Positions 25,430 through 27,884 of a stretch of DNA of 64,000 bases are shown here, in pieces. Within the stretch, counting starts at the first letter, position 1. Each line of letters opens with the position of its first letter. A program made the translations under genes and the position numbers. The notes under the pieces were generated by a model that had not been told where the DNA came from, did no database searches, and saw only the letters and a program-made list of their open reading frames with translations. The DNA is taken from contig CAYWJO010000001.1 in assembly GCA_964458565.1 (NCBI GenBank), positions 160,001 to 224,000 of the forward strand. The letters run 5' to 3'. The stretch comes from an uncultured archaeon (GTDB lineage Archaea > Asgardarchaeota > Thorarchaeia > Thorarchaeales > Thorarchaeaceae).

Positions 25430-26371
25430 TTACATGATTTGATCTATGAACCACTCCTCCATTGAAAGGTGCGTCTGAGTATCTAGAATATTCTCATCCT
25501 CGTAGAGTGATCGAACAAAATGGTTGTATGAATCTACATTCGGTGCCCGAACTGTGGTAAATAGACTGAAATCTTCACTTGTTCTGCTTAGATCCCATAC
25601 CTCATTCATTTCAGCAATTCTGTGAGCTGTTTCAGCAACTGTTCCAGGTTTTACTCTAATCTGTAGAAAGAATTTGAGCGGCAGCCCGATAAGTGTATAA
25701 TCAATAGCTGCAGAATACCCAGCAATAACACCACGAATCTCTAATCGCTGCATAGCCTTCGAAACAGCCGATTGGGATACACGCGATTTCATTTCATTCC
25801 CGATTTCCTCTTGTGATAGCGGAAGAGGATGGTCAACGCTTGGATGTTGCTTTGAGATAACAGATAGTAGCTCTAAATCTCTTTTTGATAGAGGTTTATC
25901 GTCGGTTTCAGTCTTCTTCATTTTGATACTGTGCGATTTGTAGGTTGTAAGAACTTGAGCCATCTTGTACTTACCTTCACTTGTTTTTGCAATCACATTA
26001 TCTATCGTATCAAGAAAATCTTCAAATCCGACTGAAGGTAGGTTTCTGAAATGAGCCAACAGTGAATAATCACCTGTAATACCATCAAGAGATTCTAATC
26101 CAGGCATCTGAAGAAGATCCAGACTTACTTCATGCTCTCTCGGATTCGACTTGATAAAAAGGAGCGTGCTGCGTTCAGAAGAGACCTTTGCAGGATCGAC
26201 TACAGTAATGTAAGATCGAATGACTCCATACTTTGCAAATCCACGAATAGTTTTTGATACCCAGTTTCGGCTTTTACCGACTAATGAACTGTAGACTGAA
26301 ACGGGTTGTCGAGAGTTTCTTATGATTGATTTGAGTAAGGACTGTTCAGGCTCTGTAATAGATTGCATCAT
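25430..26371 (-). CDS. Lrp/AsnC-family regulator with two tandem HTH-RAM units
   Basis: Two HTH segments ending GVI.SY / GVIAGY, each followed by an AsnC-type ligand-binding domain. Confidence 0.8.
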   Translation of the reverse strand: MMQSITEPEQSLLKSIIRNSRQPVSVYSSLVGKSRNWVSKTIRGFAKYGVIRSYITVVDPAKVSSERSTLLFIKSNPREHEVSLDLLQMPGLESLDGITGDYSLLAHFRNLPSVGFEDFLDTIDNVIAKTSEGKYKMAQVLTTYKSHSIKMKKTETDDKPLSKRDLELLSVISKQHPSVDHPLPLSQEEIGNEMKSRVSQSAVSKAMQRLEIRGVIAGYSAAIDYTLIGLPLKFFLQIRVKPGTVAETAHRIAEMNEVWDLSRTSEDFSLFTTVRAPNVDSYNHFVRSLYEDENILDTQTHLSMEEWFIDQIM

Positions 26372-26457: not shown

Positions 26458-27748
26458 ATGGCAGACTACAAGGTGAAAGATATTGGTCTTGCTGCAGAAG
26501 GCAGGATGTTGATTGAGTATGCGGAGAAGCACATGCCTGTGCTTATGCATCTTCGAAAGAAGTATGCTGAAACAAAGCCACTCAAAGGAATGAAGATTGC
26601 AGGTTGTCTACACGTCACCAAAGAGACCGCAGTTCTGATAGAAACACTTCGTGCGGTTGGTGCGGAGGTAGCATGGTCAGGATGTAATCCATTATCAACA
26701 AATGATAAAGTGGCGGCAGGTCTCGCAGCTAATGATGTTCCAGTATATGCATGGCATAACCTAAGCACCGAGGAATACTATTGGTGTATTGAACAGACTC
26801 TCAAGACTGAACCGACACTCACACTTGATGACGGTGCAGATCTCATTTTCACACTTCATAACAAGCATCAGGAATTGATACCGAATCTCTATGGGGGTTC
26901 TGAGGAAACAACAACTGGAGTCATTCGAGTTCGTGCAATGGCTGAAGATGGTGCTCTCAAGTACCCAATCATGGCTGTTAATGATGCTGATACTAAGCAT
27001 ATGTTCGATAATGTATATGGTACAGGTCAGAGCGTATTTGATGGTGTCATGCGAGCCTCTGCGATTCTCATTGCTGGGAAGACGGTGGTAATTGGTGGAT
27101 ACGGCTACTGCGGTAGGGGTATGGCTGAACGAGCACGAGGTCTTGGGGCTAATGTTATTGTCACAGAAGTGAACCCAATTCGCGGACTTCAGGCCAGAAT
27201 GGACGGTTTTCGAGTAATGCCGATGGGCGAAGCAGCTCCTGAAGGGGATTTGTTCCTTACAGCTACAGGGATGAAAGATGTAATCACCGCTGAGCATTTC
27301 AAGGTCATGAAGGATGGTGCGATGTTTGGTAATGCAGGTCACTATAACGTTGAAATCAACGAACCGGATCTCATCTCTCTCAGCAAGGGACCAAAGAGAA
27401 GGGTTCGACATGCACTTGATGAATACGAGATGATGGATGGGCGAATACTCTATCTACTAGGTGAGGGAAGACTTGTGAATCTCACAGCTGCGGAAGGTCA
27501 CCCGAGTGAGAAGTTAGCATTCGTTGCTGCTTCCTAGAAAGGTGATGGACCTCAGCTTCACAGGCCAGCTCAACGCAATGCTCTGGATGACTAAGAATGG
27601 AAAGGACTTGAAACCAGCTGTCTATGAATTCCCCAAAGAACTCGATCAACAAACTGCTTTAGCAAAATTGGAAACTATGGGCTTAAAGATAGACAAGTGG
27701 ACACCCGAGCAGGAAGCATATGCAAGAGCTTATGCTGAAGGCACATAG
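26458..27748 (+). CDS. ahcY: Adenosylhomocysteinase (SAH hydrolase), join(26458..27508,27540..27748), 419 aa after removal of a 31-nt intron
   Basis: CLHVT, SGCNPLST, DDGAD, EETTTG, FDNVYGTGQS, GYGYCGRG, GRLVNL..AEGHP motifs; the C-terminus (SEVMDLSF...) is in another frame and is restored by removing the insert. Confidence 0.95.
27509..27539 (+). other. Putative bulge-helix-bulge (splicing-endonuclease type) mRNA intron
   Basis: UCACC/GGUGA outer stem, CGAG/CUAG 4-bp helix (one G-A mismatch), UGA and AAA 3-nt bulges, GAAG..UAGCA/UGCUG.CUUC inner hairpin; canonical cuts give CAC CCG AGT GAG GTG ATG. Confidence 0.85.
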
Positions 27749-27759
27749 CTGTTTGTCTA

Positions 27760-27790
27760 AAGGGGCTACAAACCCCTTCCCTCTTTTTTT
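27760..27790 (+). terminator. Hairpin plus T-run after ahcY
   Basis: AAGGGG...CCCCTT followed by T7. Confidence 0.55.
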
Positions 27791-27884
27791 GGCTTAATTC
27801 ATTCATTCCAATGCGTTTACGTACTAGTTTAACCAAATATGGTGCACCGGACAACTCAGTTACAATCAAGGTGAATTATCAACA

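What the first reader, a model, noticed from the sequence alone, without database searches (positions are those of the whole stretch)
27498..27545. Candidate tRNA-type (bulge-helix-bulge) intron inside the SAH hydrolase (ahcY) mRNA
Seen in sequence: ahcY reads ...AAEGHPSE, then KLAFVAAS-stop, and the conserved continuation VMDLSF... lies in a different frame 31 nt downstream. The region folds as UCACC(27498-502)/GGUGA(27541-45); central helix CGAG(27503-06)/CUAG(27534-37), with 3 of 4 pairs and one G-A; 3-nt bulges UGA(27507-09) and AAA(27538-40); inner hairpin GAAG-U-UAGCA/UGCUG-CUUC. Exonic AGGUC/GACCU and GCUG/CAGC offer further or alternative exon pairing. Established: the archaeal splicing endonuclease EndA cuts after the second nucleotide of each 3-nt bulge of a BHB. 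Applying that rule (UG|A, AA|A) removes 27509-27539 and gives CAC CCG AGT GAG GTG ATG = HPSEVM, a 419-aa full-length AhcY. A random frameshift or assembly error would be very unlikely to give this geometry. The best-known archaeal mRNA intron is in crenarchaeal cbf5; I am not aware of one reported in ahcY or in an Asgard metabolic gene, but I could not check the literature.
Basis: partly seen in the sequence, partly recalled or inferred. Interest (0 to 1): 0.96.

Follow-up and report, generated by a model that had tools for sequence, protein, structure and literature searches.

The report
tRNA-type intron inside Asgard ahcY
The only S-adenosylhomocysteine hydrolase gene of this Thorarchaeota (Asgard) archaeon is broken by a 31-base insert shaped like a tRNA intron. 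Related genomes keep that shape at the same spot, so the mRNA almost certainly has to be cut and rejoined, which the papers I could search report inside the coding sequence of only one other archaeal gene (cbf5).

Summary
ahcY (window 26458-27748, +) is interrupted at 27509-27539 by 31 nt carrying an in-frame TAG. The flanks fold as helix / 3-nt bulge / 4-bp helix / 3-nt bulge / hairpin. Cutting after the second base of each bulge restores HPSEVMD and a 419-aa enzyme collinear with solved AhcY structures.

- 19 distinct sequences carry an insert of 31-38 nt at exactly this nucleotide. They come from 9 Thorarchaeota genera, a second Asgard family with an unrelated 34-nt intron, and several independent metagenome assemblies.
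- All 19 keep the bulge-helix-bulge, with compensatory changes in the central helix (CUAG/CUAG versus CCAG/CUGG) and in the hairpin.
- Sister genomes lack the insert precisely.
- Exon 2 stays open and is under purifying selection.
- In 10 of the 19 sequences the Glu codon exists only after joining.
- The genome encodes EndA alpha and beta, RtcB and Archease.

Weak points: no transcript evidence could be obtained, and this genome's own copy is the least regular, with one G.A mismatch.

The papers I could search report CDS introns of this type only in crenarchaeal cbf5. This scan has already noted ahcY introns of this kind on other Asgard DNA. Verdict: a new member of a known kind, of high interest.

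The parts
26458..27508 (+). ahcY exon 1: 350 codons plus the first base (G) of the split Glu codon
   Evidence: The ORF is shown. Pfam gives AdoHcyase 5.8e-61 and AdoHcyase_NAD 2.2e-50. It is 80-93% identical to full-length Thorarchaeota AhcY. Its last 80 aa align to PDB 7o5l_A residues 278-356.
27498..27502 (+). Outer helix of the BHB, 5' strand (UCACC, exonic; His-Pro codons)
   Evidence: It pairs with 27541-45. The three pairs nearest the bulge are kept in 11-12 of 12 Thorarchaeota sequences.
27503..27506 (+). Central 4-bp helix, 5' strand (CGAG, exonic; Pro third base plus the AG of Ser)
   Evidence: It pairs with CUAG 27534-37 in three pairs and one G.A. In relatives the second pair is U-A in 7, C-G in 4 and unpaired in 1. 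14 of 19 sequences have a perfect 4-bp helix.
27507..27509 (+). 5' bulge UGA; predicted cut between 27508 and 27509
   Evidence: The geometry is read. The same cut rule reproduces ARAGORN's boundaries for a tRNA-Thr intron of this genome, C7:41051-41080.
27509..27539 (+). 31-nt intron (phase 1, inside the Glu codon), with in-frame TAG at 27535-37
   Evidence: Deleting it restores HPSEVMD. Sister genomes lack exactly this stretch.
27510..27533 (+). Intron hairpin (GAAGU-U-AGCA / loop UUCGU / UGCU-GCUUC)
   Evidence: The fold is shown. RNAalifold predicts it on its own, with 6 pairs changed on both sides. In the named structure 5 of 8 pairs show double changes and 94.8% of cells are paired.
27534..27537 (+). 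Central helix, 3' strand (CUAG, intronic)
   Evidence: It covaries with the exon's Pro codon in relatives.
27538..27540 (+). 3' bulge AAA; predicted cut between 27539 and 27540
   Evidence: The bases of this bulge vary freely in the second intron family (ACA, AGA, UCA, CCA) while the helices are kept.
27541..27545 (+). Outer helix, 3' strand (GGUGA, exonic)
27540..27748 (+). ahcY exon 2: the AG of the Glu codon, 68 codons (VMDLSF...AEGT) and the stop
   Evidence: Pfam gives AdoHcyase profile positions 226-291. It aligns to PDB 7o5l_A residues 358-425. It is open for 68-69 codons in all 12 intron-bearing genomes whose exon 2 is complete, with dN/dS 0.03-0.14 in the 6 Thorarchaeota pairs that could be computed.

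Best explanation
Window 27509-27539 is a bulge-helix-bulge (tRNA-type) intron in the coding sequence of the single ahcY gene of a Thorarchaeota archaeon.

Inferred mechanism:
1. The gene is transcribed as one pre-mRNA.
2. Exon bases (His-Pro-Ser codons and Glu-Val-Met codons) pair with each other and with the 3' end of the intron. This forms an outer helix, a 4-bp central helix and two 3-nt bulges on opposite strands, and the rest of the intron forms a 9-bp hairpin.
3. The (alpha-beta)2 splicing endonuclease EndA cuts after the second base of each bulge, at 27508|27509 and 27539|27540.
4. RtcB, with Archease, joins the exons. This creates the Glu codon G|AG and releases a 31-nt intron, probably as a circle.
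5. Only the spliced mRNA encodes the full 419-aa enzyme. Unspliced mRNA would give a 350-aa fragment with a 9-aa tail.

Shown here: the geometry, the exact restoration of the frame, conservation and covariation of the structure in 19 sequences, precise presence or absence among close relatives, purifying selection on exon 2, and genes for the enzymes.

Inferred: that cleavage and ligation happen in the cell.

History: the Thorarchaeota introns share a GCAUUCGYUGC core and so are homologous. They are scattered over the gene tree, which fits an old intron lost precisely many times, as proposed for cbf5.
For: Site and boundaries
- The coordinates and the restored frame are confirmed.
- G000 and each of the six intron-bearing relatives among the 40 searched have a single ahcY match.
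- A pattern scan of 400 genomes of the phylum finds an insert at this very codon in 14 genomes and nowhere else. These are 12 of 86 Thorarchaeota-family genomes, in 9 genera, and 2 of 3 genomes of a second family.
- 5 further metagenome alleles were fetched, including one carried on 23 independently assembled JGI contigs.

Structure kept across relatives
- The central helix is perfect in 14 of 19 sequences and covaries: CCU-AG with CUAG, CCC-AG with CUGG.
- On 12 Thorarchaeota sequences, 86.8% of cells pair against 77.9% in shuffles (0 of 500 shuffles reach the observed value). 19 cells change on both sides against 4.9 (0 of 500). Slid controls pair 28-51%.
- RNAalifold independently finds the hairpin, with 6 compensated pairs.
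- For G342, which has the same intron sequence and a perfect CUAG/CUAG central helix, the unconstrained minimum-energy fold is itself a BHB.

Exon-side constraint
- The Ser codon is AGY in 15 of 15 intron-bearing alleles against 13 of 27 intron-less ones (Fisher p = 0.0005; relatives are not independent).
- The Pro codon CCA is used in 0 of 15 against 11 of 27.

Coding evidence
- In 10 of 19 sequences exon 1 ends AGUG|U, so Glu exists only after RNA joining.
- Exon 2 is open for 68-69 codons in all 12 complete cases, with dN/dS 0.03-0.14.
- Well-supported sister pairs differ only by precise presence or absence of the insert: G001/G016, G023/G009, G346/G022.

Machinery and context
- EndA alpha is 187 aa and carries the Y-H-K motif. 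A second EndA-domain protein of 212 aa lacks the His.
- RtcB and Archease are present.
- Asgard EndA is reported as (alpha-beta)2 with the L1 loop that gives broad substrate range (PMC5829648).
- Intron size matches this genome's tRNA introns. 22 of 32 ARAGORN tRNAs have a predicted intron, clustering at 29-34 nt.
- The actin gene of the same contig has a perfect 30-nt BHB that restores the actin C-terminus.
Against: - No RNA evidence.
- This genome's copy is the least regular of the 19. It has a G.A mismatch in the central helix, caused by a synonymous CCU to CCG change.
- Its BHB conformer is 4.9 kcal/mol above the minimum-energy fold, which opens CGAG and pairs UG with UA.
- RNAalifold does not predict the central and outer helices unaided.
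- The outer helix is only 3 bp in most relatives, with 70% of cells paired.
- Exon 2 begins with GUG AUG, so independent translation of a 68-aa fragment cannot be excluded from sequence alone.
Confidence: 0.87

Rival explanations
1. Split gene. The insert is never removed. AhcY is made as two polypeptides, residues 1-350 with a 9-aa tail and a 68-aa C-terminal piece started at the conserved GUG/AUG of Val-Met, and the two assemble non-covalently.
For: Gene callers annotate it this way, as 359 aa plus 67 aa. An AUG, the conserved Met, and a GGUGA-like stretch lie at the start of exon 2. Purifying selection on exon 2 fits this reading as well.
Against: - It gives no reason for the BHB geometry, for covariation between an exon codon and intron bases, or for the AGY and CCY codon restriction in intron-bearing alleles.
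- The break lies inside the invariant GHPSEVMD motif.
- The Glu residue would be lost in 10 of 19 alleles.
- GGUGA abuts the AUG with no spacing, and it is simply the Glu-Val codons that are also present in intron-less genes.
Confidence: 0.05
2. Decaying intron in this genome. The family-wide element is a real BHB intron, but in G000 the CCU to CCG change weakens the central helix so much that splicing is poor. ahcY would then be a recent pseudogene or a low-output gene.
For: G000 is the only one of 19 sequences with a mismatch at the second pair of the central helix. Its BHB conformer is 4.9 kcal/mol above the minimum-energy fold.
Against: - Both exons are intact and 88-93% identical to the closest relatives and to public Thorarchaeota AhcY proteins, with no other lesion.
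- It is the only ahcY copy.
- Four other alleles tolerate a G.A at another position of the same helix.
- cbf5 introns mostly have unconventional BHBs, which the hetero-oligomeric EndA is expected to recognise and cleave, as shown earlier for cbf5 (PMC2738675).
Confidence: 0.05
3. Translational bypass or frameshift. The ribosome hops over the 31 nt, as in phage T4 gene 60.
For: There is a stop codon shortly after the break and a hairpin in the gap.
Against: There are no matched take-off and landing codons. In G000 they would be GAG and AAG. In 10 of 19 alleles no Glu codon exists at the take-off site at all. The model does not explain the two 3-nt bulges or the central-helix covariation.
Confidence: 0.01
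4. Assembly or sequencing artefact, or a DNA insertion such as a miniature transposon.
For: None specific. This is a metagenome-assembled genome of 93 contigs.
Against: Homologous inserts occur at the same nucleotide in 14 reference genomes and in many independent assemblies, including contigs of 10-200 kb from different samples. There is no target-site duplication in the alleles with unambiguous boundaries. No other copy exists in the genome.
Confidence: 0.01

Closest known systems
cbf5 pre-mRNA intron of Crenarchaeota (Desulfurococcales, Sulfolobales; Watanabe 2002; Yokobori 2009, PMC2738675)
   Same: - It is a BHB-type intron inside a coding sequence.
- It is cut between the second and third bulge residues by a hetero-oligomeric EndA.
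- It is phase 1, inside the codon of a conserved residue (Asp in Cbf5, Glu here).
- The BHB is often relaxed.
- It is patchily distributed, with inferred lineage-specific precise losses.
- Gene callers mis-annotate the gene.
   Different: - The gene is different: a metabolic enzyme, not an RNA-modification enzyme.
- The phylum is different: Asgard, not Crenarchaeota.
- Two unrelated intron sequences (31-38 nt and 34 nt) occupy the identical nucleotide in two Asgard families.
- Many more presence/absence changes are needed: at least 6 are forced on a 43-row tree.
- cbf5 splicing has been shown by cDNA and in vitro cleavage. Here it has not.
BHB intron in the 5' UTR of Haloferax volcanii HVO_1309 mRNA (PMC7714728)
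   Same: It is an mRNA substrate of the archaeal splicing endonuclease outside tRNA and rRNA.
   Different: That intron lies in the untranslated leader and does not interrupt the reading frame. It is processed by a homodimeric-type euryarchaeal enzyme and was shown experimentally.
Mini-introns of archaeal tRNA genes, including the heavily interrupted tRNA genes of Asgard archaea (PMC11291895; bioRxiv 10.64898/2026.10.13.758758)
   Same: The motif, the cut rule and the size class (about 30 nt, hairpin-only, no ORF) are the same. The same genome is rich in them, with 22 of 32 ARAGORN tRNAs carrying a predicted intron. The exon hairpin left after splicing has a 7-nt loop with the joint after its sixth base, like tRNA position 37/38.
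   Different: The host is an mRNA. Splicing therefore decides the reading frame, and it has to compete with translation. Those papers treat tRNA genes only.
IRE1/RtcB unconventional splicing of HAC1/XBP1 mRNA in eukaryotes
   Same: It is protein-only, spliceosome-independent removal of a short intron from an mRNA. It changes the reading frame, and ligation is by RtcB in metazoans.
   Different: The endonuclease is different (IRE1) and the substrate is a pair of stem-loops, not a BHB. That splicing is regulated by stress. There is no evidence here for regulation.

Membership tests
Archaeal BHB (EndA-dependent) intron in a pre-mRNA | Two 3-nt bulges on opposite strands, separated by a 4-bp helix and flanked by helices (hBHBh') | tested here: met
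   The window has 27498-27545 with 3 of 4 central pairs plus a G.A. 14 of 19 homologous or co-located introns have a perfect 4-bp helix, and all 19 can be written with both bulges 3 nt long (one needs an A.G pair at the base of the hairpin).
Archaeal BHB (EndA-dependent) intron in a pre-mRNA | Cutting after the second bulge base at both sites yields the functional product | tested here: met
   The joint restores HPS-E-VMD with no indel against PDB AhcY chains: residues 356, 357 and 358 of 7o5l_A. It is the only possible joint in alleles with unambiguous boundaries. The same rule reproduces a tRNA-Thr intron of this genome.
Archaeal BHB (EndA-dependent) intron in a pre-mRNA | Structure maintained by selection (covariation) rather than sequence | tested here: met
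   One search shows 6 pairs with double changes, with 0-1 of 500 shuffles as high and slid controls far lower. One search shows that the second intron family keeps its helices while the bulge bases vary.
Archaeal BHB (EndA-dependent) intron in a pre-mRNA | Host encodes the splicing endonuclease and the 3'-phosphate RNA ligase | tested here: met
   Two EndA-domain genes, alpha with Y-H-K and a beta-like one; RtcB at 4.9e-177; Archease.
Archaeal BHB (EndA-dependent) intron in a pre-mRNA | Spliced mRNA and excised (circular) intron observed | not testable with these tools
No spliced junction was found in metagenome contigs or public proteins, and these hold mostly DNA.
Archaeal BHB (EndA-dependent) intron in a pre-mRNA | Cleavage by the cognate EndA in vitro | not testable with these tools
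   This needs a bench experiment.
Translational bypass (T4 gene 60 type) | Identical take-off and landing codons flanking the gap | tested here: not met
   The codons would be GAG and AAG in G000. There is no Glu codon at the take-off site in 10 of 19 alleles.
Self-splicing group I / group II intron | Ribozyme core of hundreds of nucleotides, recognisable by covariance models | tested here: not met
   The insert is 31 nt. There is no Rfam match anywhere in the window.

The most novel reading that the evidence does not exclude
The ahcY Glu codon is a hot spot that acquired BHB introns independently in two Asgard classes. An anticodon-arm-like exon hairpin (CACC-N7-GGUG) would be captured by the tRNA-splicing enzymes, for example by reversal of cleavage and ligation followed by reverse transcription. 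If so, mRNA introns in Asgard archaea are still being gained as well as lost, and EndA/RtcB splicing of protein-coding transcripts (ahcY, actin, EF-1alpha and others) is a routine layer of gene expression in the closest prokaryotic relatives of eukaryotes. My evidence shows two unrelated intron sequences at one nucleotide and many presence/absence changes. It cannot tell independent gain from an ancient intron whose sequence has turned over.
Probability: 0.2. Interest if true: 0.9.

Novelty: new member of a known kind. Interest (0 to 1): 0.72.

Why it matters
In the papers I could search, protein-coding introns removed by the tRNA-splicing enzymes are documented for one archaeal gene only (cbf5, 2002-2009), plus one 5' UTR case. 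Here a central metabolic gene of an Asgard archaeon needs such splicing.

The intron is polymorphic among close relatives. A second, unrelated intron sits at the same nucleotide in another Asgard family.

Three consequences follow.
1. Annotation. Public databases hold many 355-359-aa truncated adenosylhomocysteinase proteins from Asgard MAGs, plus orphan 67-aa genes. Metabolic reconstructions may therefore score the gene as broken.
2. Biology. Splicing of mRNA has to be reconciled with translation that is coupled to transcription.
3. Evolution. The system offers a tractable case of intron gain and loss in the lineage nearest to eukaryotes, although this intron type is unrelated to spliceosomal introns.

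Tried and rejected
- Spliced junctions. Exact searches in metagenome contigs gave 0 hits, both for G000's junction and for that of the abundant 38-nt-intron lineage.
- Spliced products among public proteins. No full-length protein more than 93% identical to G000's exon 1 was found. None more than 82% identical to the second family's exon 1 was found either. The 402-aa member P0148 that clusters with a truncated form is a 97%-identical other strain, not a transcript.
- Genome-wide, homology-free scan of G000 for a BHB, a hairpin and a restored ORF.
  - The loose version gave 7738 hits against 7635 for a parallel-pairing decoy.
  - The strict version gave 19 hits against 20-24 for frame-shifted decoys.
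  - There is no enrichment, so this method cannot count mRNA introns.
  - It does recover ahcY, one EF-1alpha intron and a tRNA-Thr intron.
- Paralogous copies of the intron in G000. A covariance model of the Thorarchaeota intron (R1) finds only itself, though only 150 of 1378 candidates were scored. blastn-short finds only chance 11-19-nt matches.
- Canonical BHB for the 30-nt in-frame insert of another family's ahcY (G154). It was not found with my strict geometry.
- Naming the second family. The exact-protein look-up gave no names. The nearest named protein, at 82% identity, is labelled Njordarchaeota.
- Rejected readings: ribosome hop, self-splicing intron, assembly artefact, miniature transposon. 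See the rival explanations.
Full report
**1. What is in the window**

ahcY lies at 26458-27748 on the + strand. A divergent Lrp/AsnC-type regulator gene lies upstream at 25430-26371 on the - strand.

The frame that starts at ATG 26458 reads ...AAEGHPSE and then KLAFVAAS-TAG, with the stop at 27535-37. The conserved continuation VMDLSF...AEGT-stop lies in another frame, from 27542 to 27748.

Pfam puts the first piece on AdoHcyase and AdoHcyase_NAD. It puts the second piece on positions 226-291 of the AdoHcyase profile.

Against solved structures, exon 1 ends at residue 356 of 7o5l_A and exon 2 begins at residue 358. Exactly one residue, the split Glu, is missing and there is no indel.

The whole genome (3.73 Mb, 93 contigs, 93% complete) has a single ahcY.

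**2. Is the fold more than chance?**

Taken alone, only moderately.
- The 68-nt stretch folds at -23.2 kcal/mol, z = -2.2.
- The minimum-energy fold opens CGAG and pairs UG with UA.
- The BHB conformer is 4.9 kcal/mol less stable.

The case rests on relatives.

**3. Relatives**

The nearest named genomes are Candidatus Thorarchaeota MAGs, so the organism is an Asgard archaeon.

Among 40 relatives, several had an ahcY frame that closed early. Reading the junction showed inserts at the same codon.

A degenerate pattern was built as exon 1 end, then 20-50 nt, then exon 2 start, and scanned over 400 genomes of the phylum. It hit 14 genomes, once each, always in ahcY, and the reversed control pattern hit none.
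- 12 of 86 genomes of the Thorarchaeota family, in 9 genera.
- 2 of 3 genomes of a second family.

Public protein clusters show many more truncated forms.
- There are many 355-359-aa 'adenosylhomocysteinase' proteins.
- One such allele sits on 23 independently assembled JGI contigs and has a 38-nt variant of the intron.
- Four further alleles of the second family were fetched.

In all I read 19 distinct intron-bearing sequences.

**4. Two intron families, one site**

The Thorarchaeota inserts (31, 32 or 38 nt) share a GCAUUCGYUGC hairpin core and are homologous. The second family's 34-nt insert has no recognisable similarity to them.

Both lie between the first and second base of the Glu codon. 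Both can be written as outer helix, 4-bp helix, 3-nt bulge, hairpin, 4-bp helix, 3-nt bulge, outer helix.

The central helix comes in four forms:

| Central helix | Sequences | Pairing |
|---|---|---|
| CUAG/CUAG | 7 | perfect |
| CCAG/CUGG | 7 | perfect |
| CCAG/AUGG | 4 | one G.A |
| CGAG/CUAG | 1 (this window) | one G.A |

The third base of the exon's Pro codon therefore covaries with an intron base.

On the 12 Thorarchaeota sequences:
- 86.8% of cells pair, against 77.9% in shuffles (0 of 500 as high).
- 19 cells are changed on both sides, against 4.9 (0 of 500).
- Structures slid by 1-3 columns pair only 28-51%.

RNAalifold finds the hairpin unaided, with 6 compensated pairs. It does not find the two short helices next to the bulges. 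For G342, which has the same intron sequence and a perfect central helix, the unconstrained minimum-energy fold is itself a BHB.

In the second family the helices are invariant or compensated, while the first two bases of the 3' bulge vary freely.

**5. The exons feel the constraint**

| Codon | Intron-bearing alleles | Intron-less alleles |
|---|---|---|
| Ser = AGY | 15 of 15 | 13 of 27 (the rest UCN) |
| Pro = CCA | 0 of 15 | 11 of 27 |

These counts are (Fisher p = 0.0005 for Ser). Relatives are not independent, so this is a description and not a test. It is what a structure that uses these bases would impose.

**6. The joint must be made in RNA**

In 10 of 19 alleles exon 1 ends AGUG followed by U. 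No Glu codon exists until G is joined to AG. In those alleles the coding sequence fixes the boundaries uniquely, and they are the BHB cut sites.

This argues against a ribosome hop. Together with sections 4 and 5 it also argues against a two-polypeptide split gene.

Exon 2 is open for 68-69 codons in all 12 intron-bearing genomes whose exon 2 is complete. It ends at the same AEGT, and dN/dS is 0.03-0.14 where it could be computed.

**7. Machinery**

G000 encodes:
- a 187-aa EndA with the Tyr-His-Lys motif, and a 212-aa EndA-domain paralogue without the His;
- RtcB;
- Archease.

PMC5829648 reports that Asgard archaea have the (alpha-beta)2 enzyme with the L1 insert that confers a broad substrate range. 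For cbf5, most predicted structures are unconventional BHBs, which the hetero-oligomeric enzyme is expected to recognise and cleave, as shown earlier for cbf5 (PMC2738675).

ARAGORN finds an intron in 22 of 32 tRNAs of this genome, with lengths clustering at 29-34 nt. My cut rule reproduces ARAGORN's boundaries for tRNA-Thr at C7:41051-41080.

**8. History**

On a maximum-likelihood tree of exon 1 (43 rows), the intron label needs 12 changes. Well-supported branches alone force at least 6.

Three strongly supported sister pairs differ by precise presence or absence: G001/G016, G023/G009 and G346/G022.

Because the Thorarchaeota introns are homologous, the simplest reading is an intron present in the family's ancestor and lost precisely many times. 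Transfer of intron-bearing or intron-less alleles by recombination is not excluded.

Whether the second family's intron is an independent gain at the same nucleotide, or the same old intron after sequence turnover, is open.

**9. Context in the genome**

The intron has no paralogue in G000.

A homology-free scan for a BHB, a hairpin and a restored ORF is swamped by chance fusions at gene borders and shows no enrichment.

At least one other coding gene is convincingly interrupted. The actin gene on the same contig has a perfect CCAG/CUGG BHB with bulges AAU and UAA. Removing its 30 nt restores ...[14 protein letters not shown], the conserved actin C-terminus. The scan also recovered a 30-nt candidate in EF-1alpha at C45:20426-20455.

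**10. Literature**

In the held library, CDS introns of this type are confirmed only for crenarchaeal cbf5 (PMC2738675). A 2020 paper states that cbf5 was the one additional example and adds a 5' UTR intron in Haloferax (PMC7714728). The 2009 paper notes that introns in other protein genes had been predicted but not confirmed.

Papers on Asgard introns treat tRNA genes only (PMC11291895; bioRxiv 10.64898/2026.10.13.758758).

Searches for Asgard or Thorarchaeota mRNA introns found nothing else. The library lacks most subscription journals.

**11. Earlier notes of this scan**

Earlier AI notes of this scan report ahcY introns on other Asgard DNA:
- 32 nt in Thorarchaeota;
- 34 nt in another lineage;
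- 30 nt in-frame in Jord/Freyarchaeia;
- five introns in an Odin-type genome.

They also report actin, EF-1alpha, oppB, rRNA and tRNA introns in this genome. I re-derived the 32-nt and 34-nt families and the actin case here. The remaining notes are leads only.

**12. Verdict**

This genome's copy is the least regular of the set.

It is a new member of a known kind, the BHB pre-mRNA intron. It sits in a new gene and a new phylum, and its comparative support is unusually rich.

Noticed in passing
G000 contig C1, minus strand, about 109,600-109,645 (outside the window, about 50 kb upstream): The actin gene is interrupted by a 30-nt insert with a perfect BHB: CCAG / aau / hairpin / CUGG / uaa. Removing it restores ...[30 protein letters not shown], the conserved actin C-terminus. 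The insert carries an in-frame stop.
   Followed up: partly
G000 contig C45:20426-20455 (+): My BHB and ORF scan recovers a 30-nt candidate intron with a 4-bp central helix UCAU/GUGA and a 9-bp hairpin. It has 75 open codons upstream and 92 downstream.
   Followed up: partly
L132 (G154:C4) about 1160-1190: In another Asgard family (five genomes of one genus have an ahcY frame of only 248-256 aa), the gene carries a 30-nt in-frame insert with TAA inside the NDxxTKxKFDN motif. My strict BHB geometry does not fit it, so it may be a relaxed motif.
   Followed up: partly
whole genome G000: ARAGORN predicts an intron in 22 of 32 tRNA genes it finds. Seven introns are 29-34 nt, the same size class as the ahcY intron. 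Only 32 tRNAs are found at all, which suggests that more are too interrupted to detect.
   Followed up: no
public protein collection (P0014, P0025, P0041, P0049, P0080, P0092, P0098, P0154, P0161-P0168; NCBI OLS30547.1): Many Asgard 'adenosylhomocysteinase' entries are 355-371 aa, and separate 65-68-aa genes are called next to them. These are the unrecognised intron-bearing alleles. In the second family all nine clusters at 84% identity or more to the query (its own included) are truncated, so the intron looks fixed there.
   Followed up: partly
L128:1449-1486 (JGI contigs from samples 3300062772, 3300062816, 3300062535, 3300063131): This is a 38-nt variant of the Thorarchaeota intron with a larger hairpin loop. 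The same allele is carried on 23 contigs from several samples.
   Followed up: no
window 27750-27800: Directly after the ahcY stop there is a GGGG...CCCC hairpin followed by a run of seven T, which looks like a terminator. I read it in the sequence only and ran no tool on it.
   Followed up: no
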